Assembly (NCBI GenBank): GCA_000004985.1
Contig: GG738892.1
Source of the DNA: Naegleria gruberi
Taxonomy: Eukaryota
DNA: 64,000 bases
Strand: one strand, 5' to 3'
In this document: positions 1 through 56,559 of the stretch, piece after piece
Numbering within the stretch: the first letter of the stretch is position 1
Layout of the letters: each line of letters starts with the position of its first letter
Position numbers and translations under genes: made by a program
The notes under the pieces: generated by a model
Seen by the model: the letters and a program-made list of their open reading frames with translations, nothing else
The model's database searches: none
What the model was told of the DNA's origin: nothing

Positions 1-1460
1 TAATTTCATTGTAAATGGAGGTATTGGAATACCAAATGAGCATTATCACATTTGGAGAGATGGTTACAATAGCTATTTATATGCAACTGGTAAGAGATTT
101 AAGCAATCTTTACAAAAGCATCATGTCAATAATTCGATAATGACTGATGCCAAATTGAGATTAATTAGAGAAAAGTGGAATACTGCCATTTCTGGAAAAA
201 GCCAACAAAAGAAAAATCAAGTGAGATCTAAAAGGGATGAGAATAAATCCTTGTTAAATCTCATCAAGAAGATTATTAAGGATCGATTATTTATGAGAAA
301 GTACTTTGATGGTGATAGGTTTAAATCTAAGAGATTTGAATTTCGTGAACAGATTTATTTTGAAAAGAAACTTCAAGTTCATGATTCTCTTCTTCGTTAT
401 ACTGATCACAAGAAGTATTTAGCTAAATTGGAGGAAGCCAAGAAATTGTACAACAATCAAGACACATTGGAGAAACAAATTGAAAGTTTAATTCATTCTG
501 AATATGAAAAGCCAGAGATTGAGGAGATTATAATTGGAGATTTACATGACAATAGTGGACCAACTGATCTATTTCTNNNNNNNNNNNNNNNNNNNNNNNN
601 NNNNNNNNNNNNNNNNNNNNNNNNNNNNNNNNNNNNNNNNNNNNNNNNNNNNNNNNNNNNNNNNNNNNNNNNNNNNNNNNNNNNNNNNNNNNNNNNNNNN
701 NNNNNNNNNNNNNNNNNNNNNNNNNNNNNNNNNNNNNNNNNNNNNNNNNNNNNNNNNNNNNNNNNNNNNNNNNNNNNNNNNNNNNNNNNNNNNNNNNNNN
801 NNNNNNNNNNNNNNNNNNNNNNNNNNNNNNNNNNNNNNNNNNNNNNNNNNNNNNNNNNNNNNNNNNNNNNNNNNNNNNNNNNNNNNNNNNNNNNNNNNNN
901 NNNNNNNNNNNNNNNNNNNNNNNNNNNNNNNNNNNNNNNNNNNNNNNNNNNNNNNNNNNNNNNNNNNNNNNNNNNNNNNNNNNNNNNNNNNNNNNNNNNN
1001 NNNNNNNNNNNNNNNNNNNNNNNNNNNNNNNNNNNNNNNNNNNNNNNNNNNNNNNNNNNNNNNNNNNNNNNNNNNNNNNNNNNNNNNNNNNNNNNNNNNN
1101 NNNNNNNNNNNNNNNNNNNNNNNNNNNNNNNNNNNNNNNNNNNNNNNNNNNNNNNNNNNNNNNNNNNNNNNNNNNNNNNNNNNNNNNNNNNNNNNNNNNN
1201 NNNNNNNNNNNNNNNNNNNNNNNNNNNNNNNNNNNNNNNNNNNNNNNNNNNNNNNNNNNNNNNNNNNNNNNNNNNNNNNNNNNNNNNNNNNNNNNNNNNN
1301 NNNNNNNNNNNNNNNNNNNNNNNNNNNNNNNNNNNNNNNNNNNTACATGGACCCCTTTCACATGGAAAATATTGTGGAAATATTTGATAGACTTGGAATT
1401 GTTCTGGATGTGTATTATTATGAAAGGTATAAAATAGATGAGTATGTTTTCGATTGGTAA
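1..1460 (+). CDS. Partial gene of unknown function, lysine-rich. The reading frame is open from the window start and is interrupted by an assembly gap, and the frame differs on the two sides of the gap.
   Basis: The ORF is open from position 2 through 577. After the N-run a protein-like frame continues to a stop at 1460 (..YMDPFHMENIVEIFDRLGIVLDVYYYERYKIDEYVFDW). I recognise no domain. Confidence 0.3.
578..1343. other. Assembly gap (run of N).
   Basis: Continuous n characters. Confidence 0.99.
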
Positions 1461-3513: not shown

Positions 3514-5852
3514 TTAATCATAGTCATTGAAACTTTGTTCCTCATTTTCAAAGGATCCAAGTATTTGCTCCAATTCTTCACTTGGCATGAATACTTCACT
3601 GCCATAAGTTGGTGGAATATTTGTCACGGTTGGAAGAAAGTTATGTTGTAAATGTTGTGGATTAATATCAGCAAAGGATGGTGGTAAATGAGTTTGATTG
3701 ATCATATTTACATCAAATGAATGTTGTTGGGATTGGATTGAATTATTTCTCATAGAAGATGCTTGAACACTGATAGTGTTACAAATTTGGGAAAGAAGTT
3801 CTGATACAGAGGGATCATTAAGCGTATTATTTGTTGGATTGATGGGAATAAATGCTTGTTGAGGTGATTGGAATTCTCCAGATGAGCTAGAACTAGTGTA
3901 CGGTGATGAGGTTGAGGAAGAGGATGAAGACATGATTTCTTCAAATCTTGGAGGTTGAGGATTAACATTTCCAAATGGTAAGTTAGGATTCATAGTTGGT
4001 GCTGTTTGAGTGTTAATTACAGGTTGTTGGGTAGGTGGTTGTTGTCTCTTTGCAATTTGGGATGTTAATTCCTCAATTGAATTGACAGTATTGGTTCCTT
4101 CTATTACTTCTGCTTGTTCTTTCATAATTATTCCACAAAACTTGTTAACTCTTCCATATCTTGTTCCTAGTATTTTCAAAGCTCTTAATCCTTTAGCTAC
4201 ATAATCGTAATAGTCAATACCCTCTGCTAAATTAACTCGTTTTCCAACTCTTATCATTCTAATTATTGACAAGTGAACTTTACAAGCGCCAGCCACAACA
4301 CTGGTTAAGGCTACAGGTACAACTGGGAATGTTTCTTTTGTAGTTTCATCAATAATCTTGTTGGCAGATACTTCAATTAAGTGACCTCGAATACCAGCCT
4401 CAATTAAAATTCTCATTCGAGAACCATGATAGACCATACTGTCAGTAATGGTGGCTAATTCTCGTTGTTCAGGAGTAAACGAAAATGTTTGATTGTGAAG
4501 AGTAAGGAATGAACAAACGCTATCTAGTAATCCAAGATAACTAATGACGTTTTGAGGAGTAATTTTCTGTTTAGCAATTGTCATATATTCCTCTGGCATT
4601 TGTCTACCAGTGGCATATCTATAAATTAATGTCAGTCTTGTACACATGAAATGTTCATCTTCAGTTGAGTGATAATTTTGTGAATCTATACTCAATCGTG
4701 TAACTGTTTTAACCTTGTCCAAATTTTTCATTTCAGGTGTCAAATTATCATGATCCAACAAGTTCTTTTCTTTGAAATAGTAATCTACATTATTTAAATA
4801 GAATCTTGCTCTACTATCATCTCCTTCTCCTGCAAAAAAGTAACTAATGTAATTAAATGTACTAACTACAAAGAAATCGTCACACTTATCGAATAGGGAT
4901 GATAAAAGTTGTTTTGAAATATTGATATCTTCCATAGCTCGTTCTCGTCTTCCTAATCGTTGTTCAACAAGGGCTTGAATAGAAAATACTAAAGCCATCA
5001 ATTCTGTATTATTATATGGATTTTCTGTAAAGAGAAAATCTTCCAAGACTTTTCTTCCAACAACAGGATGCCCTCCTGAAACAATATTGAAATAAGAATC
5101 AATAGTATTAATTTTCAAAAATTGTTTGTAGAGAGAGTAATTCTCGCTTAATAAATTATTCAATGTTGATGGAATGAGCATTGTTAATTTCTTTCTTAAT
5201 TCAAAATCTTGTTCTGGATTTGTAGGAACAGGATATGGATCTTTTCTTTGAGAGTATTTCAATCTACTTCCTTGTATTTCATTCTCCGAACTTATTAATA
5301 AATTACTTGCTTGATTTTGAGAAATTGCCAATTGATTTGTTGATGATCCTGGTGCTCCTGTATCCTTCTTCTTTTTGTTTTTACCTCCTCTAATTCTTCC
5401 TTTCTTTTTTGGTTCTCTATATATACATTCTCTTCCTCTTAGTTGGCATTCACTGCAAATTGGTAATTTCTATTTAAATAATAATAATTAATATTAATTT
5501 CAAAAGTATGCAATTTATACTTACCTTGTCACACTACACAATGATAAATTAATAATCATACAAGTTAAATTCCTTACCTTTTTATGCTAAACAATAAATA
5601 AATTAATAATCAATTAATTGATAAAATCCTTACCATACTTCTACAAGTTGCACAAGCAATAGGATGATATGAAAAATTTGGATCTCTTGGTGTATCATCA
5701 TTATCAAATTCGTCATCATCATCAAAATCATTAGCTTGTTTTCCAACAAGAGATTCTGAGCCGAAAGTTGACATCGGATTGAATTCTCCAGATGAACTCA
5801 TGATGTTGTTATTATTATTGTTGTTATTGAGAGTTTTTATATAAAATTTCAA
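3514..5852 (-). CDS. Zn(II)2Cys6 binuclear-cluster transcription factor with a C-terminal fungal-specific TF-like region. Five exons including two 9-nt microexons (5586..5578 and 5533..5525). The alternative start is the ATG at 5801.
   Basis: The spliced DNA-binding domain reads ...YHPIACATCRSM|HKK|CDK|KLPICSECQLRGRECIY, i.e. C-x2-C-x6-C-x6-C-x2-C-x6-C. All three introns (47, 44 and 55 nt) begin GTAAG and end AG. The large 3' exon (5469..3514) encodes a 605-aa region typical of fungal Zn-cluster factors and ends in a Ser/Gln/Asn-rich tail. Confidence 0.75.
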
Positions 5853-7607: not shown

Positions 7608-8756
7608 TTGATTCCAATAAGAATGAAAGCAATATTTGCTGATGATATTTGTGTTGAAATATTTTCCTTCTTATCCGAAGATTGTAAATCGATGATGATT
7701 TATTCTCTTGTTTCAAATCAGTGGTTAACAATCATTCGAGAAAGGTCGAATATTTCTCTTTGCATCAACACAAGAAAAATGGTCAACCATGAATTGTTGA
7801 ATTATTTTACAAAGATAAAGTTTGCGCCATCAACATTTAATGACCTGGGATTTAACAAGATCAATACGAAACGATTAAAAGAGATTGAAATAATGTATAA
7901 TCGGCTTGGTGTTGAAGGAGCAAAATTGATTGGAAAATTGTCTCAGTTGACTATTTTAAATATCAGTAATAATCAGATTGGGGATTTAGGAGCTCAATCA
8001 ATAAGTGAATTGAAACTACTAAAGGAGCTTTTTGCTGATAACAATCAAATTGGCAATACAGGAGTCAGTTTTATAAGCCAATTGAAACAATTACTCAAAC
8101 TTTCACTGATGGGAAATTATTTTGACAATGAAGGTGTTTATTCAATTAGTAAAATGGACCAATTGACTGAACTGGATATAGGAACGAACAAAATCGATGA
8201 AAAAGGGGCTCAATATATTGGTGAAATGAAACAATTAAGGAAACTTTTCATTTCTGGAACTCAAATTGGTTCAGAAGGAGCTAAAGCCATCAGTGGATTA
8301 CCAAATTTGACCAATTTAAATATTGGATACAGTCAGATTGGGATTGAAGGTGCAAAATATGTTTGTGGAATGCATCAATTAACTCAACTTGGAATTGGAA
8401 ACAGCAGAATTGGAGTTGAAACAGCTAAACTAATTGGTCAATTGAAACATTTAACTTTTTTGGTGATTGAAGGTAATAATATAGGTGATGAGGGTGCAAA
8501 ATATATTAGTGAAGCTAAATTGAAGAAATTAGTAATTAGCAATGGAAGAATTGGTGGAGAAGGCGCTCAATATATTGCTAAATTACATCAATTAACTAAT
8601 CTTGACATTAGTTGTAATAATGTGGATACAGCAGGTGCTAGATCAATAAGTAAATTACCCAATTTGACAATACTCGATATAAGTGTCAATAAAATTGGAT
8701 CAGGAGGAGCAAGATTGATCAAAGGAATGACCCAATTGACCAAAGTCATTCAATAA
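7608..8756 (+). CDS. F-box / leucine-rich-repeat protein of the RNI-like type with 24-residue repeats. Single exon.
   Basis: The N-terminal ICVEIFSFLSEDCKSMMIYSLVSNQWLTII is F-box-like. It is followed by about 12 tandem 24-aa units of the form L..L.I..N.IGdeGAk.I..l.qLt. Confidence 0.7.
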   Translation: MIPIRMKAIFADDICVEIFSFLSEDCKSMMIYSLVSNQWLTIIRERSNISLCINTRKMVNHELLNYFTKIKFAPSTFNDLGFNKINTKRLKEIEIMYNRLGVEGAKLIGKLSQLTILNISNNQIGDLGAQSISELKLLKELFADNNQIGNTGVSFISQLKQLLKLSLMGNYFDNEGVYSISKMDQLTELDIGTNKIDEKGAQYIGEMKQLRKLFISGTQIGSEGAKAISGLPNLTNLNIGYSQIGIEGAKYVCGMHQLTQLGIGNSRIGVETAKLIGQLKHLTFLVIEGNNIGDEGAKYISEAKLKKLVISNGRIGGEGAQYIAKLHQLTNLDISCNNVDTAGARSISKLPNLTILDISVNKIGSGGARLIKGMTQLTKVIQ

Positions 8757-9074
8757 AACAAGAGCATATGTAATTGGAAACTTTATTTATCAATATTGTT
8801 ATTCTCCATTTTCCGTTCAGTGGATTGGAAATCTTGCCATTGTGAATATAACAATGAATAAAAGCTAATTCGTATTTTTCGAAGTTATCTGTTCGGTTGT
8901 TGAATTCCCTTATTGGAAATAAGGGATTATTGGAGTTTTCAATTGCGTAAGCACAATCAATCGCTCAAAAACATTCACAACCAACGCACATTTCGAACAA
9001 CATAAACACAGTTCTACCAGAACATGTTTCTGTTTCAAATAGCATCAAAAAAATTGTTGGAAAATCATTGAAGA

Positions 9075-9398
9075 ATGTCCCAAAGAAACTATCAACTTAG
9101 AACTTACACTCTCAAAACTAAAGAAAGTGCATTACAATACAGAGATATTTGGTATGATCATGTTGAAAGTTTGAAAGTGGTTGGAATTCAAACTCATGGA
9201 ATTTTCATTCCTGTTGATTGTGAGGAGCAAGTGATTGCCTTGGTTAGTTACAATACTGATAAAACAGTTGAGGAATATACATTGGAATATATGAATAGTG
9301 AAGGATTTAAGAAAGATGTCAAGGATTTTGATATTTCAAATCTTGTCAAAGTTGAAACAAGAGAAATGACAGCTATTAAAGGATCTCCATTGCAATAA
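9075..9398 (+). CDS. Small protein, possibly a NIPSNAP/Dabb-like dimeric alpha+beta barrel.
   Basis: The N-terminal NYQLRTYTLKTKESALQYRDIWYDHVE resembles the NIPSNAP Y-E-L-R-T-Y-x-L-K motif. The protein is 107 aa. This is a weak call. Confidence 0.35.
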   Translation: MSQRNYQLRTYTLKTKESALQYRDIWYDHVESLKVVGIQTHGIFIPVDCEEQVIALVSYNTDKTVEEYTLEYMNSEGFKKDVKDFDISNLVKVETREMTAIKGSPLQ

Positions 9399-9463
9399 AA
9401 AAGAAATGACAACCAGATAACATCCAAATGTGTTAATAAACTTTGCTCAATTGAAAAGTGAAT

Positions 9464-9523
9464 GGAAATAGAGTAAATAGCCAAAAATGGAGTCATAGGG
9501 AATCGAACCCTAGACCTTCTGCA

Positions 9524-9554
<31 letters not shown>

Positions 9555-9598
9555 AACCCCTACTGTTTTGTTATTTAAAATATACTACTCCATTTGTT
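9464..9598. repeat. Copy 2 of the ~140-bp duplicated tRNA-Ala unit.
   Basis: See copy 1. It is in direct orientation, 2.1 kb downstream. Confidence 0.85.
9488..9560 (-). tRNA. tRNA-Ala, anticodon UGC. Second copy, with identical mature sequence.
   Basis: The same 73-nt sequence as 7347..7419, followed by the TTTTT terminator. Confidence 0.92.
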
Positions 9599-9867
9599 AT
9601 TGGAGGTGAATAACTATGTCAAACTAAATCCACCTTTTTAGATTCTCCTCAATCATAGTACAACTTTGTAACAACAGTTTCGTTATGTTTCAAACTTAGA
9701 ATTGATTCAATTTCACATTAAAATAAATATCACGATTCAAATTCAAAACTCAACATGAACGTTCAATTTCAAATTCAACTTTTAACTGACACAACGCTAG
9801 CAAATTTGTTAAAATCAACTCGAAAAAAATAACTCTACCGACCATCAACACCAATCAACACACAAAA

Positions 9868-11337
9868 ATGAAATCTTTCAAAGGCTACGAGAGAGTTTGG
9901 TATCCTCCGATGAATGAAGAAAGTTCTCTGAATTATTCTTCTTCAAATCAACATGAAAAATTCCCATTTTCTTTAATATCCTATAATATTCTTGCTCAGG
10001 CACTTTGTAATAGACAGGGATCACAGAAATACTTGACCAAGTCACAAGCAAGGTGGAATATTAGAAGAAATAATTTATTGAATGAAATTTCGCATTATAA
10101 TTCCGATTTGATTTCATTACAGGAATGTGATTTTTATGATAGTTTTTGGAAATCAGAATTGGAAAGATTGGGATATGAAACATTGTATAGTCAACAATTT
10201 AATTGTGAAAAGAATTATCAACCAATGCCATATGGATTATTGACAGCTTTCAAAAAGGACAAATTTAAATTATTGGAATTTGTTGTTTTGGATTATCAGA
10301 AGGAAGCTTTAAAAGATGTCAATATTACTGATATTGAAATTTACGAAGCCAAGCTGAGTGGAAATATTGCTCTCATTAGTGTACTATCACCGATTGACCA
10401 TCCTGAGAAGGTTCTTATCCTTTCTAATACTCATCTCTATTGGAGACCAGCATGCAATTCAGTTCGTGTCAGACAAGCACTCATTCTCATGCAAACAGTT
10501 CAGAAACTGAAAGAAACCTATGATAGCCAATCGTCGTACGAATCGGTTGAGTATGTCTGTACCGGGGACTATAACACTTCTCCGAATGATCCACCCTATA
10601 TTCTCCTAACAACAAGGAACCCCTCAAATAATGAACCTTTCAAGGGCGATTACAATGCTGTAAAATTGTGGGAGGTTATCAATAATGGAACAGATGACGA
10701 ATTTATTAAGGAATTTCCTCTTGTGTTTGTTGAGGAAATCAAGTTGGTTTTGGAATCCAAGTTACAAATGGAGTCGTCATTACAACTAACCTCAAATAGT
10801 ATAACTGTGGCTGATCCATTAAACGGCCAAGATTGCACGTCAATAGACACTGTATCTCGAGAATCAACAGAGGAATGCAACCAGGGTATTAAGGATACTG
10901 TTGTTTCCCAAGAGGAGGTTGAGAGAATTTTCAAAGAGCAATACCAGCAACGAATCAGAAACATTAAGCAGTGTATTCATCAATTTTCTTTATCTCTCCC
11001 TATTATTTCCCTTTATACATTCTATAATAGTCACTGTGACAAGGAAGAAGATATTAAGGCCATGAAGGTACACGAAAGGTGGAGCAATAATGACTTACCC
11101 TATACCACATATACGCCTCATTATATTTCCACTCTGGATTATGTATTTGTTAGTGAAAATTCCACACTTTCATTAACACATCTCTTATCTGTTCCGACAC
11201 CTCAACAAATTCAAGAGGAACACTCACAACTAACTCAATTGTTGGAAGAGAAGGATTCTGGAGATAGTCTCGTTTGGATTCCAAACGATATTCACTCATC
11301 TGATCACTTTAGTTTGGGAGTAAGGATGTCCCAATAA
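9868..11337 (+). CDS. Endonuclease/exonuclease/phosphatase (EEP) family protein, CCR4/nocturnin/angel-like putative deadenylase.
   Basis: FSLISYNILAQAL...SLQECDFYDSFW...SNTHLYWRP...IPNDIHSSDHFSL are the conserved EEP catalytic blocks in the right order. It is a single 489-aa ORF. Confidence 0.65.
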   Translation: MKSFKGYERVWYPPMNEESSLNYSSSNQHEKFPFSLISYNILAQALCNRQGSQKYLTKSQARWNIRRNNLLNEISHYNSDLISLQECDFYDSFWKSELERLGYETLYSQQFNCEKNYQPMPYGLLTAFKKDKFKLLEFVVLDYQKEALKDVNITDIEIYEAKLSGNIALISVLSPIDHPEKVLILSNTHLYWRPACNSVRVRQALILMQTVQKLKETYDSQSSYESVEYVCTGDYNTSPNDPPYILLTTRNPSNNEPFKGDYNAVKLWEVINNGTDDEFIKEFPLVFVEEIKLVLESKLQMESSLQLTSNSITVADPLNGQDCTSIDTVSRESTEECNQGIKDTVVSQEEVERIFKEQYQQRIRNIKQCIHQFSLSLPIISLYTFYNSHCDKEEDIKAMKVHERWSNNDLPYTTYTPHYISTLDYVFVSENSTLSLTHLLSVPTPQQIQEEHSQLTQLLEEKDSGDSLVWIPNDIHSSDHFSLGVRMSQ

Positions 11338-37883: not shown

Positions 37884-38764
37884 ACAACAACTTGTTTTGA
37901 TTCTTTTTTGATTTATTTTGTAAAGTTATTTGTTATTCGAATGAAGTAACAAACTGTAATGTTCGTTCAATTGCATTATCAAGGTAATGTTTGGAAGGTT
38001 GTAACATAAAAGACTTGCCCTAAGTGACATGATCAGTCGAAGCGTGATATATTCTATCAATTGTGGTTCGGTAGCTAAAAGCTGTTAGCTCTCACCCCCA
38101 AAAAGGTCAAACACAATTACGACATTATTTGCAAATGGAATACATGTATCGAATAAAAAGTGTTTCGCTATGAACTTGAACGAAAAGGCCATTAATGATA
38201 ATGTCTGATAGCATTGAACTGCTTGAGGTTCATTTTTAATCAAAAATGGCCATTACTAATTTGTATTTGAATCAATCAGTTCTCTCGTTTCTCGTTTACA
38301 AATTGGAGATTCTTATATTGGATATTCCAATGTTAGTTGTTCACAATATTGAAGTTTAATTATTGTCTAAAAGTGTGTTTCCAGTATTATTATTATTATT
38401 AGCACAGGAAGTCTCAAACGATATTGAATTCTTATTGAAAGGCATCATCACATCTCTCATCTTTACAATAAAATCTCAATAAATCTCAATACTGTACAGA
38501 ACAACAATTTTCAATGTTCAAGTATAGAACTTTTGCTCACATCAAACTGGCTCGCTACTTGAACTCAATTCCAATTTGTGCGACTTTAGAGCGGAGCTCA
38601 ACTCGAGATTAAATCCAGACACATTGAGCTTGTAGTTTTCACTACCCTAAGAGTGGATGTAGTTGGTGGTGTAGCCGGTAGCCGGTTACAGCCGGATGGT
38701 AGTGCGGGTAGTCGGAAGCTGTTGAATACACCTTCAAAGCCAAAAATTAATAAAAGTTCTATTT

Positions 38765-40195
38765 TTAAAATTTAACTTTATGGAAATTCATGAAAAACGA
38801 GTATTGGTTGAACATTTCTTTGCCAGCAATATTATGAATCAAACATTTACCAATTATTTGATTTAGTGCAACATAGCCTGTTGTTACATGAATGTTTGAA
38901 TCAATTAATCTATATCCAATAATTGGATGAACCGAAGAGAGACACTTTTTGATGTTGGTGAAATATACTCTTTGCTCTTTAACCTCAACAAATTGACCAA
39001 CAAGTAAGGAACCATCCTTTGCCTTAAATAAAATAAATTCTTTGTTTTGTACAATTGGAATCCATTTCTTGTTTTCAGATTGATTTCTTACCCAAGGATA
39101 ATTGATGTTAATTTGTTTTTGAAGTTTTTCAAAATTCGCTCCTCGTTGTTCTAAATTTTTGTGATTGGAAGAGTCATTAAATTGTTTGAAAACTTTGTGT
39201 TTCAATTCAAAAAGCAATGCCCAGAAGAACCTGGCATTTCCCCACTTCAAACAATCTTCAAAAATATGAGAATTCCAATGAAAATTAGGATTTGTAAAAT
39301 TACCATTACCATATAGGGAAATGACTTGTTTCCTGAAATTGAAATGTTTCAATTTTGCAATTTCAATATTTGAAGGTGAAACCAAATCTTGAATCAAAGA
39401 AAGTACGTATTCTACGTGATTTGACCAACATATTATATGTTTCTTCTTCAAACTGAATGAAACATCACAGTGATTCTTATTATTAATAAGAAAATCATAC
39501 ATAATTGGGCAACTAAAAACCACGAATTCCAAAAAATGATCTGCTGAACAATCATTGTAATCTTTTGCAATCATTTTCAAAGGTTTACCATGATTGTTTG
39601 TATACTTGTCCATAACAGACTGAAAATCACTTAAAATGTTGGTGTAATTGAAATATTTGAAAAATTTTTTAAGGTGTCTCCTTAAATCACCTTGAATAGA
39701 ACCATGCATTAATTCAACAGTTGAATTTTCAAAAATATCACAATCCTTAATTTGTAAAAACGGACACTTCATTTGAGTATTGTTACTTTGTCGAACTTTT
39801 TCTTTTACCTGTTTGGATTTTTTGGACTTGGAATCAATCTGCATATCTTTGATTTGAATATCAGCGACTGTAATAAACTTGTAGCCATTACATGAGGTAC
39901 CAATTGATAATTTTTGTTGCATTTCAATTGCTTCAGTAACAGTTCTTAAAGGATAGACTAAAGGTGTTGAAATGTCATTAGGACATTTACAATAATCTCC
40001 TTTTGGGCATTTACATTTAGAACATGTATAGCTTTCAAGAAATAATGATAGCCATCTTTGTACAGAATCCCAAATCCAAGGACCTATTAGAATTCGAATC
40101 TTTTCAATTGAATCAGTGTAAGAGTTATAANNNNNNNNNNNNNNNNNNNNNNNNNNNNNNNNNNNNNNNNNNNNNNNNNNATTATTATTTTCCAC
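38765..40195 (-). CDS. Intronless Cys-cluster protein of at least 476 aa. The N-terminus is interrupted by a 50-nt gap. It may be a transposase-like or mobile-element ORF.
   Basis: A continuous ORF in an otherwise intron-rich region. It carries the cluster YTCSKCKCPKGDYCKCP. Its flanks contain GC-rich degenerate repeats (38640-38700 and 40900-40990) and a tandem ~20-nt repeat (40730-40830). Confidence 0.45.
   Translation of the reverse strand: MENNNXXXXXXXXXXXXXXXXXYNSYTDSIEKIRILIGPWIWDSVQRWLSLFLESYTCSKCKCPKGDYCKCPNDISTPLVYPLRTVTEAIEMQQKLSIGTSCNGYKFITVADIQIKDMQIDSKSKKSKQVKEKVRQSNNTQMKCPFLQIKDCDIFENSTVELMHGSIQGDLRRHLKKFFKYFNYTNILSDFQSVMDKYTNNHGKPLKMIAKDYNDCSADHFLEFVVFSCPIMYDFLINNKNHCDVSFSLKKKHIICWSNHVEYVLSLIQDLVSPSNIEIAKLKHFNFRKQVISLYGNGNFTNPNFHWNSHIFEDCLKWGNARFFWALLFELKHKVFKQFNDSSNHKNLEQRGANFEKLQKQININYPWVRNQSENKKWIPIVQNKEFILFKAKDGSLLVGQFVEVKEQRVYFTNIKKCLSSVHPIIGYRLIDSNIHVTTGYVALNQIIGKCLIHNIAGKEMFNQYSFFMNFHKVKF
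40131..40180. other. Assembly gap.
   Basis: N-run. Confidence 0.99.
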
Positions 40196-40269
40196 AATTA
40201 ATTAGAGCTATTGTTATGTCAGTAAGATATTCAGCAATCTGTGGAGTTCTTTTAAAAGAAAGAGTCTAA

Positions 40270-40625
40270 TAGAATTAAAGAAAAAAGAGAAGCCAAAAAG
40301 AAAGAAGAATTCCAATGTAGAAGTTTCTAATATAGAAGGGGTTCCATCCTCAATTCAAGCAACAGCTATTCAACCTTCTACCTCTTCACCAACAAGAGAA
40401 CATGTCAGAGCCAACAATGGTCAATTCTCTTCATTGCAGAGCTATGTTGCAGAAGATGAACAAGTTGTTTTTTTAACACTTGTTAAAGATTGGATCAAAA
40501 AACCTGACACAAGAGCAACACAACCTTCAGCAGACGCAATTAATTTGCTTGATATGGAATCAGATGGTGCAGATCTTTATTCAGATAATGGTCAATCAGA
40601 CTCAGAAGAAGCACAACAATTGTAA
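40270..40625 (+). CDS. Hypothetical acidic protein, divergent from the Cys-cluster ORF.
   Basis: The frame is open from about 40270 and reads ..EVSNIEGVPSSIQATAIQPSTSSP..LDMESDGADLYSDNGQSDSEEAQQL. Confidence 0.25.
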
Positions 40626-40729
40626 ATAAATAAATCAGTTTTACTCAAATTATGAAAATTGTAATGGTCAACAGAGTAAATTAAGGGAAACTTTCAGTCA
40701 AATACCAACACACTAAAAGCCGCATAGAA

Positions 40730-40830
40730 ACTGAATGTTCACCGAATAGTCACTGAATGTTTACCATATAATAACTGAATGGTTACTGAATATTTATTGA
40801 ATAGTTACCCACCAATTTCATTCCTTTACC
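40730..40830. repeat. Degenerate tandem repeat with a ~19-21-nt unit.
   Basis: aaactgaatgttcaccg / aatagtcactgaatgtttacc / atataataactgaatggttactg / aatatttattgaatagttaccc. Confidence 0.6.
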
Positions 40831-41220
40831 CAACAATCAACCGACTACCAACCAACTAACACTGAACTAAAACGGTCAGGAGAGTATGGGCTGATATTCG
40901 ATTAATTTCTGGAAAATCGTTCAGTTGTTTTCGGAAACAAGTTGGGGAAAATTAGGGTTGTAGTCGGTGATAGTAGGGTTGTGGATGGGGTTTAGACGGA
41001 ACATAGCCAACTAAAAACCAACTATAACACTGTCTATTACCCAAGTACTCCACTCTTAGGACCCATGTGTTTCACACCACTACAACATACAACATCAAAA
41101 CAAATAGCTAAACATCATCTCTTAGAAGAAGTGCACCTTTGAATTTCTCTGTGCAATTCCGCGAGTTAAATACAACAAGACAATAATTAAATACTTTTTA
41201 ATATATATTCCAGATAGAAA

Positions 41221-42879
41221 ATGCCTAGAATTGGTATTGTAGGAGGTGGTCCAGGAGGACTTTCAACTGCCAGTATGTTTTATTTTGATTTTTATTATGT
41301 TTAAATACAATATTTTTTGTAAACTATTTAAAAACTATTGAAATACACTATTGAAATACTATTGAAATACTTAGTGATTTTGGCTAGTAAGGGATTTGAT
41401 GTAACCATTTTTGAAAAATCCAAAGTAATTGGTGGTAGAACTTCATCATTCAATGTTGGCCATTCCAAATTTGATTTGGGTCCAACTTTTCTCATGATGA
41501 AATTTGTTTTGGATAAAGTTTTTCAAGATGCTGGAAAGGATTCATCGAATTATATGAAATTCCAACAATTAAATCCAATGTACAGATTACAATATAATCC
41601 AGATAAGCATATGGATTGTTATGATTTAACACAAAAATCAAAAATGATTGGTGAAATGAAAAGATGTTTCCCACAAGATGTGAAAGGATATGAAGAATGG
41701 GTTGATTGGGAAACTCAAAGATATGAAAAGTTATTACCACTCTTACAAAAGGCTTACACTTCACATAGTGACGTTGTGTCAATGGACGCAATTCGTGCAA
41801 TTCCATATATGCAATTTCCAAAATCACTTCATGAAATGTTAGGTGGTTTCTATAAGGATCCATTGACCAAGTTATCTTTCAGTTTCCAAGCTAAATATTT
41901 GGGAATGAGTCCATATACTTGTCCTGCTTTTTATGGAATAATTCCATATGTTGAACATGCATTTGGTGTTTATCATGTTGAAGGAGGTCTTTCAGAAATT
42001 ACAAGAACTATGGCCATTGCTGCAACTGAGAATGGAACAAAGATTAAGCTTAATACTCCAGTGACACAATTAATTGTCGATCAAGCTAATAGACGTGTGA
42101 AAGGTGTCAAAGTTATGGAAGAAGGTCAAGAAGAGAATGAATATTATTTTGATGAAGTTGTTTTGAATGCTGACTTCCCTTATGCTGTAAATAATTTAAT
42201 TCCAAATGCTGAAAATTTAATGAAACAATGGAAACCAAGTAAGCTTGCCAAGATGAAATATTCATGTTCCACATTTATGCTTTATTTGGCACTTGACAAG
42301 GAATATCCTGAAATTCAACACCATACCATTTCATTTGCTGATGATTATGCTGCCAATTTGAAGGCCATTCAAGAGGGAAGATTAACAGAAGATTTGTCGA
42401 TTTATGTGAGAAATTCATGTGTTAATGACAAGACAGTTTCACCAAAGGGTAAATCTGGTATCTATGTTTTGGCTCCAATACCTAATCTCATTGATAGTCA
42501 AGGACAAATCGATTGGAATGATCAAAATACTGTAAAGAGATGTAGAGAAATTGTTTTGAACCATTTGGAAAAGAGAGTTGGAATGACTGATATAAGACAA
42601 CATATTGAAGATGAATTGGTCATTACTCCAAAGACATGGCAAAACAATAATATTTACAATGGTAGCGTCTTTTCATTGTCGCACAATCTCTTACAAATGT
42701 TATCCATGCGTCCAAGAAATAAGTTCAACGAATTGGAGGGATTGTACTTGACTGGTGCTCACACTTCTCCAGGTTCTGGACTTCCAACAATCTTTGAAAG
42801 TGGAAGAATGGTTACTGAACTATTGTGTAACAAATATGGTGTACAATATCAAAGATCTAGTTTGTTACATCAAAAATAA
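41221..42879 (+). CDS. Phytoene-desaturase-family (CrtI-like) FAD-dependent oxidoreductase. Two exons: 41221..41272 and 41365..42879.
   Basis: The spliced N-terminus reads MPRIGIVGGGPGGLSTAMILASKGFDVTIFEKSKVIGGRTSSFNVGHSKFDLGPT. This is a GxGxxG dinucleotide fold followed by the GGR...FD.GPT block characteristic of CrtI/CrtISO/RetSat enzymes. The donor is GTATGT and the acceptor is TTAG. Confidence 0.72.
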
Positions 42880-47161: not shown

Positions 47162-47624
47162 NNNNNNNNNNNNNNNNNNNNNNNNNNNNNNNNNNNNNNN
47201 NNNNNNNNNNNNNNNNNNNNNNNNNNNNNNNNNNNNNNNNNNNNNNNNNNNNNNNNNNNNNNNNNNNNNNNNNNNNNNNNNNNNNNNNNNNNNNNNNNNN
47301 NNNNNNNNNNNNNNNNNNNNNNNNNNNNNNNNNNNNNNNNNNNNNNNNNNNNNNNNNNNNNNNNNNNNNNNNNNNNNNNNNNNNNNNNNNNNNNNNNNNN
47401 NNNNNNNNNNNNNNNNNNNNNNNNNNNNNNNNNNNNNNNNNNNNNNNNNNNNNNNNNNNNNNNNNNNNNNNNNNNNNNNNNNNNNNNNNNNNNNNNNNNN
47501 NNNNNNNNNNNNNNNNNNNNNNNNNNNNNNNNNNNNNNNNNNNNNNNNNNNNNNNNNNNNNNNNNNNNNNNNNNNNNNNNNNNNNNNNNNNNNNNNNNNN
47601 NNNNNNNNNNNNNNNNNNNNNNNN
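47162..47624. other. Assembly gap that truncates two genes.
   Basis: N-run. Confidence 0.99.
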
Positions 47625-48640
47625 TTCTGGCATAGTTCAGAGCTCTGATTGCAGGAATAGTTGTCAAAATTATTACTTGACTCATGGCATAAAAGGAAAG
47701 AATTACTGGAATAGGAATAATATAATCCACCAATTGATTCAAAATGTCAATGCGAGGAAGTGCAAAACTGAGTATGACACAAATTAACATTAAGGTTGTC
47801 GTAACTGATGCTTCCAATTTGATTCCCCAAGTGTCCTTTTCCCTAATAATTACCAATATTAAACAACAAAGAGTAATAATTCCATAAAGGCAATAGAATG
47901 CAATGTACAGAGGAACTGTATTTGGTTTGGTTAAACAACCAGTTCCGAATTGTTTCCATCCGAAACTTGGATAATTATGAGTAAAAGACTCTGGACCCAA
48001 AACCTCAATCATTCCAAGCACCAACCAAATAATTGAATGAAGAGAGAATAAACCAATTTGAACGATCAACAAGAACTTATTACTTAGAAGAAACTTGTAC
48101 ATAATCAAGAGTTTCTTCTGATAGTTACTAAATTGCACTTTCAATGATTGAGAACTGTCATCTTTTTCTTGAGAGATGATATCATTCACAACTTTCTGAA
48201 CTTGTGACCTGTTATTAGAAACATCACCAACTGCTTCTGGAAAACTTGATTTCATAGTTAATAATTGAAATAATCGACCTCGTATCACAAATGAAAAGCA
48301 AGCATACCTTAAAATTATTATTTCTAAAAAAGGGAACGAGAAAAACTACATACATGGCTGGAAGTGGCATAGCCCAACACAAATTGAACGCCACAAATGA
48401 AAATAATCCACAAGGAAAGATATCGCGTCCTATAATCCATCTTAGACACGGTATTAAAACATGTACAGTCCCAGCCATAATATTCGACAAAATCCAAAGC
48501 ATTCCTCTCGAATGAATATGTCCACTCTTTCGTTTCAGAAAGACAACAATCAAAGTAAAGCATAATATTGGAAGAAAGAAAAGCAACATAATAGAAGAAA
48601 ATATAGGAACAATAATGGTATCTGGACATGCTAACATCAT
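47625..48640 (-). CDS. Multi-pass membrane protein with at least 7 predicted TM helices. The C-terminus is lost in the gap. There is one small intron near 48240-48300.
   Basis: Successive hydrophobic segments: IIVPIFSSIMLLFFLPILCFTLIVVFL, MLWILSNIMAGTVHVLIPCL, FLLIVQIGLFSLHSIIWLVLGMI, VPLYIAFYCLYGIITLCCLILVII and others. No family assigned. Confidence 0.4.
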
Positions 48641-56082: not shown

Positions 56083-56559
56083 ATGAATACAAGTCCAACA
56101 ACATCGTCACCATTTCGTCAAAAAAGCAAAACAATGGGATATAAATCCTCACCAACAGTAGCACATCAATTAGAATTGGCACTCCAAGATGAAGAAGAAC
56201 ATCGCATGCAACAACATTTAGAACATGCCTACAATCGTTCAAATTCCACTACTAAAACTAGTACTACTGCCACTAATCGTTCTCATTCCACTCTCAGGAA
56301 ACAATATTTTAGACATTGTAGAACTGATAGTGAGAATGAGAGGGAGAATTCCAAGAGAATGAGTAAAACACTGCAAGCTAATGATGAAAGAAACTGGAAG
56401 AAACATCAATCGTTAAAGATGGATCCTTTGGATAGGATTGGTTATTCTGCTTCTATGATGGATTCTTCTTGTGGAAGTCAATCAACAACTAACCGAAATA
56501 TTTTCAGCAAGTTTATTTCAAAACTCTCAAAGAAGAAGAGTTCGAATAATTTATTCTAA
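56083..56559 (+). CDS. Hypothetical Ser/Thr-rich basic protein.
   Basis: A 158-aa ORF. No domain recognised. Confidence 0.3.
   Translation: MNTSPTTSSPFRQKSKTMGYKSSPTVAHQLELALQDEEEHRMQQHLEHAYNRSNSTTKTSTTATNRSHSTLRKQYFRHCRTDSENERENSKRMSKTLQANDERNWKKHQSLKMDPLDRIGYSASMMDSSCGSQSTTNRNIFSKFISKLSKKKSSNNLF

What the first reader, a model, noticed from the sequence alone, without database searches (positions are those of the whole stretch)
38560..41060. Intronless Cys-cluster ORF with GC-rich repeat-bearing flanks: candidate mobile element or foreign insertion
The ORF 38765..40195 is at least 476 aa, has no introns, and carries a CxCxCx5CxC cluster (YTCSKCKCPKGDYCKCP). Every sizeable neighbour is spliced. 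Its flanks are compositionally unusual for this AT-rich region. The 5' flank has GC-rich degenerate repeats (gtagttggtggtgtagccggtagccggttacagccggatggtagtgcgggtagtcgg at 38650-38700). The 3' flank has a related motif (ttgtagtcggtgatagtagggttgtggatgggg at about 40930-40970) and a tandem ~20-nt repeat at 40730-40830. The divergent small acidic ORF (40270..40625) may belong to the same unit. The Cys cluster followed by a large uncharacterised domain recalls the CxC-domain transposase families of fungi (KDZ-type), but that assignment is only a guess.
Basis: partly seen in the sequence, partly recalled or inferred. Interest (0 to 1): 0.6.

Follow-up and report, generated by a model that had tools for sequence, protein, structure and literature searches.

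The report
Cut-and-paste transposon copy in Naegleria

Summary
An open frame at 38765-40130 (-) carries a Cys cluster, the flanks hold GC-rich repeats, and a tandem repeat lies at 40724-40820. The "476 aa" ORF, however, runs through a 50-N assembly gap.

The block is a DNA transposon spanning 38646-41060. It has perfect 12-nt terminal inverted repeats (CCTAAGAGTGGA), AC/AC 2-bp flanking duplications and clustered subterminal GTAGYYGG repeats.

At least four 99-100 % identical transposase copies lie on different scaffolds, while the neighbouring host gene is single-copy.

A sister family in N. lovaniensis has six copies, all with CCTAGG termini and 2-bp duplications.

No KDZ or CxC domain was detected. 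The termini are not CACTA-like. This is a new member of a known kind, of modest interest.

The parts
38644..38645 (.). Left copy of the putative 2-bp target-site duplication (AC)
   Evidence: AC directly abuts both termini. Six of six copies of the sister family in N. lovaniensis have 2-bp duplications. For this single copy the match alone is weak, roughly 1 in 14 by chance.
38646..38657 (+). Left terminal inverted repeat CCTAAGAGTGGA. This is the end downstream of the transposase gene. It continues imperfectly to about 38666.
   Evidence: Its only exact matches in the 64-kb window are the two element ends, in inverted orientation. About 0.15 matches (allowing 1 mismatch) are expected by chance. 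The terminus CCTARG is conserved in N. lovaniensis L001, in L003-L008 and in metagenome locus L002.
38659..38715 (+). Left subterminal GC-rich repeats: GTAGTTGG, GTAGCCGG x2, CAGCCGG, GTAGTCGG
   Evidence: This is the highest-GC 70-mer of the window. A 7-nt tandem GTAGCCG is reported.
38765..40130 (-). Transposase gene, C-terminal 454 codons plus stop, corresponding to aa 288-741 of the full-length paralogue P0004. It contains the second catalytic D (WIWDS), the C(2)C cluster, MH, H(3)H, the catalytic E (FELKH) and a C-terminal beta-barrel.
   Evidence: 100 % identical to P0004 and 99.3 % to P0001. It equals NCBI model P0003, NAEGRDRAFT_71659. Conserved residues are, and the fold.
40131..40180 (.). 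Assembly gap (50 N). If the copy is complete, it hides transposase aa 1-287 (including the first catalytic D), the shared divergent promoter region, and exon 1 plus the intron of ORF2.
   Evidence: The N-terminal 287 aa of P0004 and the first ~103 aa of P0082 are absent from the window.
40206..40625 (+). Last exon of ORF2, a small accessory protein with a basic KKKEKPKRKK stretch and an acidic tail. It is transcribed divergently from the transposase.
   Evidence: 99-100 % identical to P0006 and P0082. These are annotated next to the transposase paralogues P0001 and P0004 on the same scaffolds, with consecutive UniProt accessions. The acceptor AG lies at 40204-40205.
40724..40820 (+). Internal tandem array with an 11-nt unit ACTGAATNGTT (22-nt super-unit), lying between ORF2 and the right end
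40841..41028 (.). Right subterminal repeats of the same GTAGYYGG / TAGYYGG type, mostly on the opposite strand to those at the left end
   Evidence: One search lists occurrences at 40841(-), 40852(-), 40960(+), 41007(-) and 41018(-).
41049..41060 (-). Right terminal inverted repeat (TCCACTCTTAGG on the + strand)
41061..41062 (.). Right copy of the putative 2-bp target-site duplication (AC)
   Evidence: with the family rule.

Best explanation
The block 38646-41060 is one copy of a class II (cut-and-paste) DNA transposon resident in Naegleria gruberi. It belongs to the CACTA/EnSpm-Mirage-Chapaev-Transib ('CMCT') group of DDE transposons.

Shown:
- It has 12-nt perfect terminal inverted repeats beginning 5'-CCTAAG, with clusters of GTAGYYGG subterminal repeats at both ends.
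- It has two divergently oriented genes: a transposase of at least 741 aa and a roughly 240-aa basic/acidic ORF2.
- It is present in at least four 99-100 % identical copies on different scaffolds.

Inferred mechanism:
- N-terminal C2H2 fingers, present in full-length relatives, and possibly ORF2 bind the terminal and subterminal repeats.
- The RNase-H-like core, braced by a Cys2-His2 zinc site as in RAG1, cuts both ends. By analogy with RAG1/Transib this would go through a hairpin on the flanking DNA.
- The element is inserted with a 2-bp staggered cut, which gives the AC/AC duplication.

Unresolved: the 50-N gap hides the middle of the element, so this copy may be complete and autonomous or internally deleted.
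For: Organism and copy number:
- The ORF matches N. gruberi proteins at 99-100 % identity. Four gene models at >=90 % identity lie on scaffolds of 530, 342, 362 and 7.7 kb.
- ORF2 has paralogues on the same scaffolds as the transposase paralogues, with adjacent accession numbers.
- The right-hand host gene (NAEGRDRAFT_71660) has only one N. gruberi member in its 90 % cluster. Repetition is therefore confined to the element.

Ends:
- The 12/12 inverted repeat occurs only at the two ends.
- 6 of the 8 GTAGYYGG motifs in the window lie within about 80-220 nt of the ends.
- The same CCTARG terminus occurs in a 29 %-identical metagenomic element, L002 (17/18-nt TIR).
- It also occurs in N. lovaniensis L001.
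- It also occurs in six 4391-bp copies of a 28 %-identical N. lovaniensis family, L003-L008. These are 99.6-99.9 % identical, sit in six different gene neighbourhoods, and all six have 2-bp duplications.

Protein:
- In 16 family members D220, D308, C323, C326, H429, H571, H575 and E595 are invariant.
- This D..D-C(2)C-..-H(3-4)H-E pattern is the stated signature of the CMCT clade (PMC12730594).
- Distant hits of the phmmer search carry Pfam Transposase_21 above the cut-off, and also DUF4218 and Plavaka.
- The family profile finds plant CACTA transposases at E 5e-10.
- hhalign of the family against a CACTA alignment gives 99.5 % probability and E 1e-22 over 469 columns, with the D, D, CxxC, MH, HxxxH and E columns paired.
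- The AlphaFold model has pLDDT 89.9 and pTM 0.88.
- Foldseek's top 20 hits are RAG1, followed by HzTransib.
- The family profile's N-terminus matches C2H2 zinc fingers in the PDB.

Literature: CMC-EnSpm repeats are already listed for N. lovaniensis (PMC6125883).
Against: - Pfam gives no hit to this protein itself. The link to CACTA transposases needs profiles or structure.
- The termini are 5'-CC..GG-3' rather than the 5'-CA..TG-3' / CACTA usual in this clade.
- The 2-bp duplication at this copy is a single observation. The L002 copy does not show a clean 2-bp duplication.
- The first catalytic D and all of ORF2 exon 1 are not visible in the window because of the gap.
- No empty site or excision footprint could be examined, because the N. 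gruberi genome is not in the retrievable collections.
- ORF2 has no recognisable domain, and its single-sequence model is uninformative with pLDDT 40.
Confidence: 0.9

Rival explanations
1. It is a KDZ-type (Kyakuja/Dileera/Zisupton) transposon with a CxC zinc domain.
For: A Cys-rich cluster lies upstream of a large uncharacterised domain. It is indeed a transposon.
Against: - No KDZ or CxC1-6 Pfam model is hit by the protein or by 25 relatives. The relatives instead hit Transposase_21, DUF4218 and Plavaka.
- Only the CxxC pair of the cluster is conserved, and it aligns with the C(2)C of CACTA transposases.
- The fold is RAG1-like.
- The family makes 2-bp duplications, whereas Zisupton makes 8-bp ones.
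Confidence: 0.03
2. It is an ordinary or domesticated single host gene, and the repeats in the flanks are incidental.
For: The NCBI annotation calls it 'predicted protein'. A degenerate relative in N. lovaniensis (L001) lacks one end and ORF2.
Against: - At least four 99-100 % identical paralogues lie on different scaffolds, each paired with ORF2.
- The flanking gene is single-copy.
- The terminal inverted repeat is perfect, and its terminus is conserved in relatives that share only 28-43 % protein identity.
- The N. lovaniensis relative L001 is not at a syntenic position.
Confidence: 0.03
3. It is a non-autonomous, internally deleted derivative. Under this reading the 50-N gap is roughly its true size, so this copy lacks the first catalytic Asp and ORF2 exon 1 and can move only with transposase supplied by complete copies.
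For: - The other gaps in the window are sized at 767 and 463 N, which suggests that gap lengths are estimates rather than placeholders.
- At least 1.2 kb would have to be hidden in a gap written as 50 N.
- Internal deletions are common in DNA transposons (general knowledge).
Against: Assemblers typically break inside dispersed repeats, and 50 N may be a minimum placeholder. Both retained parts are intact and identical to the full-length copy. This is a sub-case of the main explanation, not a contradiction of it.
Confidence: 0.3
4. The copies arose by segmental duplication or assembly redundancy, not by transposition.
For: The flanks of the other N. gruberi copies could not be inspected.
Against: - The adjacent host gene has a single N. 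gruberi member in its cluster.
- The sister family in N. lovaniensis sits in six unrelated gene contexts, with sharp boundaries exactly at the TIRs and with target duplications.
Confidence: 0.03

Closest known systems
EnSpm/CACTA transposons (CMC superfamily; Pfam Transposase_21 + DUF4218, e.g. plant TnpD-like transposases)
   Same: [quoted passage not shown]
- Profile-profile match over the whole core at 99.5 % probability.
- Short target duplication, subterminal repeat clusters and a second accessory gene.
   Different: - Termini are CCTARG...CYTAGG, not CACTA...TAGTG.
- The duplication is 2 bp, not 3 bp.
- The two genes are divergent.
- The N-terminus has C2H2 fingers instead of the plant 'Transposase-associated' domain.
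- Pfam models do not detect the protein directly.
Mirage, the CMC lineage with 2-bp duplications, now merged into EnSpm in Repbase (PMC4455052; the 2-bp figure is from my own knowledge)
   Same: 2-bp target duplication and CMC-type transposase motifs.
   Different: No Mirage sequence was available for direct comparison, so the relationship is untested.
Transib transposase and RAG1 / RAG1-like (ProtoRAG)
   Different: - No sequence-level hit to RAG1 or Transib in the PDB profile search.
- The duplication is 2 bp, not 5 bp.
- The termini are not heptamer-like CACAGTG.
- There is no RAG2-like partner.
- Sequence profiles place it nearer to CACTA.
Plavaka (fungal CMCT lineage)
   Same: The same motif set. 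One distant relative found by the search hits Pfam Plavaka at 3.4e-10. PlavakaA also makes 2-bp duplications.
   Different: Plavaka termini are TGT..ACA or CATCA..TGATG. The Naegleria protein gives no direct Plavaka Pfam hit.
KDZ (Kyakuja-Dileera-Zisupton)
   Same: A large eukaryotic DDE transposase with Cys-rich modules.
   Different: No KDZ or CxC domain hit. The fold relatives and the duplication length are different.

Membership tests
CMCT clade (EnSpm/CACTA-Mirage-Chapaev-Transib-Plavaka) | DDE catalytic triad in an RNase-H-like core | tested here: met
   D220, D308 and E595 are invariant in 16 family members. The predicted fold matches RAG1 and Transib. In the window copy, D308 and E595 are visible and D220 lies in the gap.
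CMCT clade (EnSpm/CACTA-Mirage-Chapaev-Transib-Plavaka) | [quoted passage not shown] | tested here: met
   C323-x2-C326 and H571-x3-H575 are invariant. Both are present in the window ORF (CSKC; HWNSH).
CMCT clade (EnSpm/CACTA-Mirage-Chapaev-Transib-Plavaka) | Target-site duplication of 2-5 bp | tested here: met
   The sister family has 2-bp duplications in 6 of 6 copies. The window copy has AC/AC. L002 is unclear.
CMCT clade (EnSpm/CACTA-Mirage-Chapaev-Transib-Plavaka) | Termini 5'-CA..TG-3' ('in most cases') | tested here: not met
   Termini are 5'-CCTAAG...CTTAGG-3' here and CCTAGG in three related families.
EnSpm/CACTA sensu stricto | Direct match to Pfam Transposase_21 / DUF4218 | tested here: not met
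   P0001, P0004 and the window ORF give no Pfam hit. The homology is seen only through profiles.
EnSpm/CACTA sensu stricto | CACTA(CAC..GTG) termini and 3-bp duplication | tested here: not met
   An alternative reading, CAC at 38640 ... GTG at 41069 with TTT flanks, needs an indel in the repeat. It is contradicted by the sharp CCTAGG boundaries in L001 and L003-L008.
KDZ (Kyakuja-Dileera-Zisupton) | KDZ transposase domain and CxC1-6 domains (Pfam); 8-bp duplication for Zisupton | tested here: not met
   No such Pfam hits in the protein or in 25 relatives. The duplication is 2 bp.
Transib/RAG1 | 5-bp duplication, heptamer-like CACAGTG termini, sequence similarity to Transib or RAG1 | tested here: not met
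   The structural similarity is strong. However, there is no sequence hit in the PDB profile search, the duplication is 2 bp and the termini differ.
Autonomous transposon (this particular copy) | Complete transposase gene and both ends | tested here: inconclusive
   Both ends are present. The transposase is intact where visible, but aa 1-287 fall in the 50-N gap.

The most novel reading that the evidence does not exclude
The element represents a so-far unnamed lineage of the CMCT clade, found in Heterolobosea (Naegleria, Willaertia) and in uncultured AT-rich eukaryotes. The lineage would be defined by:
- near-palindromic CCTAGG termini;
- 2-bp duplications;
- an N-terminal C2H2 finger array;
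- a C-terminal Sm/Tudor-like barrel;
- a divergently transcribed accessory gene.

It is invisible to Pfam and is still active: copies are 100 % identical in N. gruberi and six copies are 99.6-99.9 % identical in N. lovaniensis. That would give Naegleria a native transposon usable as a genetic tool. It would also add a RAG1-like transposase from a deep-branching eukaryote to the RAG1/Transib/CACTA comparison.
Probability: 0.4. Interest if true: 0.4.

Novelty: new member of a known kind. Interest (0 to 1): 0.27.

Why it matters
- Four or more 'predicted protein' genes of N. gruberi, and a similar set in N. lovaniensis and N. fowleri, can be re-annotated as transposase and accessory genes of a DNA transposon.
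- The result explains an assembly gap.
- It defines exact ends, a target-duplication rule and catalytic residues for a family that standard domain libraries miss.
- Near-identical copies suggest recent activity. This is of practical interest because genetic tools for Naegleria are scarce.
- The confident RAG1-like model adds a data point on how widely the RAG1/Transib/CACTA architecture is spread among eukaryotes.
- None of this changes current understanding of transposons.

Tried and rejected
- **Pfam on the window ORF, P0001, P0002 and ORF2.** No meaningful hits.
- **Retrieving the other N. gruberi copies.** The look-up of encoding contigs has no record for P0001, P0003, P0004 or P0005. Boundaries, duplications and empty sites in N. 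gruberi itself therefore could not be compared. I used N. lovaniensis and a metagenome contig instead.
- **Gapped self-alignment of the flanks.** It gave only a weak diffuse match, and the repeat finder did not list the 12-nt TIR among its top pairs. I found the TIR by eye and confirmed it with the DNA search.
- **CAC...GTG / TTT (3-bp) reading of the ends.** Considered and rejected in favour of CCTAAG...CTTAGG / AC, because related families end exactly at CCTAGG.
- **The MH(x)E position as the catalytic E.** Rejected. It is not conserved (S in N. gruberi), whereas E595 in FE.KH is invariant.
- **Profile search of the 5.8-billion set with the alignment.** It returned only three proteins, so it gave no taxonomic survey.
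- **afdb50 fold library.** Unavailable.
- **Single-sequence AlphaFold of ORF2.** pLDDT 40, unusable.
- **ORF2 homology outside N. gruberi.** Only compositional and weak: tblastn E 0.016 in L002 and none in the N. lovaniensis family.
- **Weak tblastn hit of the transposase at 47920-48276.** This is a membrane-protein-like ORF and a chance match.
- **Synteny with N. lovaniensis.** No shared flanking genes with L001.
- **Literature.** No paper in the library describes this N. gruberi element.
Full report
**Observation**

The window is AT-rich (33.6 % GC) eukaryotic DNA. The ORF listing reports a minus-strand ORF at 38765..40195 (476 aa) containing YTCSKCKCPKGDYCKCP. The sequence shows a run of 50 N at 40131-40180 inside that ORF, so only 38765-40130 (454 codons plus stop) is real coding sequence.

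The left flank 38646-38715 is 58.6 % GC, the highest 70-nt value in the window (mean 33.6 %, sd 6.1 %). The right flank 40831-41060 is 41 % GC. TRF confirms an 11/22-nt tandem array at 40729-40808.

The open frame is 40206-40625 on the + strand and starts just after an AG.

**Organism and copy number**

- The ORF matches Naegleria gruberi 'predicted proteins' at 99-100 % identity.
- Its 90 % cluster holds four N. gruberi gene models on four scaffolds: P0001 (645 aa, 530 kb), P0003 (385 aa, 342 kb), P0004 (741 aa, 362 kb) and P0005 (245 aa, 7.7 kb).
- P0004 is 100 % identical to the window over all 454 residues. P0001 differs at three positions.
- The N-terminal 287 residues of P0004 are nowhere in the window. 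They would fall in the gap.
- I spliced the right-hand neighbour by hand (41221-41272 + 41375-42879). The product is exactly NCBI protein NAEGRDRAFT_71660 on the 342-kb scaffold, and it is the only N. gruberi member of its 90 % cluster.
- The window is therefore the scaffold of P0003 (NAEGRDRAFT_71659). The host flank is single-copy while the element is repeated.

**Second gene**

The + strand frame 40206-40625 is 99-100 % identical to the C-terminal part of P0006 (193 aa) and P0082 (241 aa). These lie on the same scaffolds as P0001 and P0004 and carry the next UniProt accessions (D2VAA4/D2VAA5 and D2VNN7/D2VNN8). Each copy therefore has two genes, divergently oriented, and the window's gap hides their 5' halves.

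ORF2 is spliced. It has a basic stretch and an acidic tail, no Pfam domain, and an unusable single-sequence model with pLDDT 40.

**Ends**

- CCTAAGAGTGGA occurs exactly twice in the window, at 38646-38657 (+) and 41049-41060 (-). About 0.15 matches (allowing 1 mismatch) are expected by chance.
- Both ends are abutted by AC.
- GTAGYYGG occurs 8 times in 64 kb, and 6 of these lie just inside the two ends.

Because the N. gruberi genome could not be retrieved, I tested the ends in relatives.

1. Metagenome contig L002 encodes P0009, 29 % identical. It holds a 5365-bp element with a 17/18-nt TIR, CCTAGGAAGGTCAAAACA, at 15-32 and 5362-5379. Small genes lie divergently upstream of the transposase.
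2. N. lovaniensis L001 carries a frameshifted copy (35-43 % identity) that ends in ...CCACTCCTAGG at 11102-11112.
3. A second N. lovaniensis family encodes P0092 (742 aa, 28 % identical to P0004). It has six copies (L003-L008) in six unrelated gene neighbourhoods.
   - The copies are 99.6-99.9 % identical over 4391 bp.
   - All start CCTAGGAGCAGA and end TCTGCTCCTAGG.
   - All are flanked by 2-bp duplications: AT, AA, TT, TT, AA, TT.

The window element therefore fits a family rule: CCTARG termini, roughly 12-nt TIRs and a 2-bp duplication. An alternative reading (CAC at 38640 ... GTG at 41069, with a TTT duplication) would be more 'CACTA-like'. It needs an indel in the repeat and is contradicted by the sharp CCTAGG boundaries in the relatives.

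**Protein family**

Pfam finds nothing in the protein. An exhaustive phmmer search found 76 relatives. These comprise a second N. gruberi subfamily, N. lovaniensis, N. fowleri, Willaertia, and many 850-930-aa metagenomic proteins.

In alignments, the following are invariant: D220, Y236, N241, D308, C323, C326, H429, G434, H571, H575 and E595. This is D..D-C(2)C-..-H(3)H-E, the published signature shared by EnSpm/CACTA, Mirage, Chapaev, Transib, Plavaka and RAG1 (PMC12730594).

Links to CACTA transposases:
- The most distant relatives hit Pfam Transposase_21 above threshold, and also DUF4218 and Plavaka.
- The family profile retrieves plant CACTA transposases at E 5e-10.
- hhalign of the family against a CACTA alignment gives 99.5 % probability and E 1e-22 over 469 columns, with all motif columns paired.

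No KDZ or CxC model is hit anywhere.

**Structure**

- An AlphaFold model of P0001 built with 39 sequences is confident: pLDDT 89.9, pTM 0.88.
- Foldseek's 20 best PDB hits are all RAG1, followed by HzTransib.
- The N-terminus of full-length family members matches C2H2 zinc fingers.

**Mechanism**

Shown: the anatomy described above and the catalytic signature.

Inferred:
- The zinc fingers, and perhaps ORF2, recognise the TIR and subterminal repeats.
- The DDE core cleaves both ends, with a Cys2-His2 zinc site equivalent to C727/C730/H937/H942 of RAG1 (own knowledge). By analogy with RAG1/Transib this goes via a flanking-DNA hairpin.
- Integration uses a 2-bp stagger.

Near-identity of copies in two species argues for recent activity. 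Whether the window copy is complete or internally deleted cannot be decided, because of the gap.

**Comparison and novelty**

The element works like, and is homologous to, CACTA/EnSpm-type transposons. CMC-EnSpm repeats have already been tabulated for N. lovaniensis (PMC6125883).

It differs from textbook members in several ways:
- its termini (CCTAGG rather than CACTA);
- its 2-bp duplication, as in Mirage and PlavakaA;
- its divergent gene pair;
- its domain ends;
- its invisibility to Pfam.

I found no paper describing this N. gruberi family, and Repbase could not be searched. I rate it a new member of a known kind.

The KDZ assignment was wrong, and the ORF length and Cys pattern were partly wrong.

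Noticed in passing
L001:8272-8336 and L001:11113-11177: The degenerate N. lovaniensis copy (8337-11112) has only one recognisable element end and no ORF2. It is bracketed by a perfect 65-nt direct repeat that starts exactly at the element terminus. This is far too long for a normal target duplication. It may reflect aberrant or one-ended insertion repair, or a duplicated promoter/5'UTR of the downstream GST-like gene.
   Followed up: partly
L003-L008: 4328-8718 in each: A related 4391-bp transposon family in N. lovaniensis has six 99.6-99.9 % identical copies. The 742-aa transposases are identical, all copies have 2-bp duplications, and each lies in a different gene context. The family appears recently active. 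A 186-aa fragment of the same protein cluster is annotated in N. fowleri.
   Followed up: yes
L002:15-5379: A JGI metagenome contig (sample 3300038658, 23 % GC) is almost entirely one complete element of the same lineage. It has the CCTAGG termini and long poly-T/A-rich internal spacers, from an unidentified AT-rich eukaryote. Its flanks (TA / AT) do not form a clean 2-bp duplication.
   Followed up: partly
[not shown]
   Followed up: no
window 41322-41370: A 24-nt tandem repeat (ACTATTGAAA-type, 2 copies, 91 % match) lies inside the first intron of the right-hand host gene NAEGRDRAFT_71660.
   Followed up: no
window 56287-56298 (-): A solitary one-mismatch match to the terminal repeat (CCTGAGAGTGGA) has no partner nearby. 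It is probably chance but could be a relic end.
   Followed up: no
window 577-1343 and 47162-47624: There are two further assembly gaps, of 767 and 463 N. The one at 47162-47624 interrupts ORFs on both strands. Gap lengths differ, so they seem to be estimates, which bears on how to read the 50-N gap inside the element.
   Followed up: no
P0004 N-terminus (not in window): The longest N. gruberi gene model begins MEEYVDHINFKHH. This aligns with the second half of a C2H2 finger in the Willaertia and metagenomic relatives. The annotated start is therefore probably truncated, and the real transposase is longer than 741 aa.
   Followed up: no
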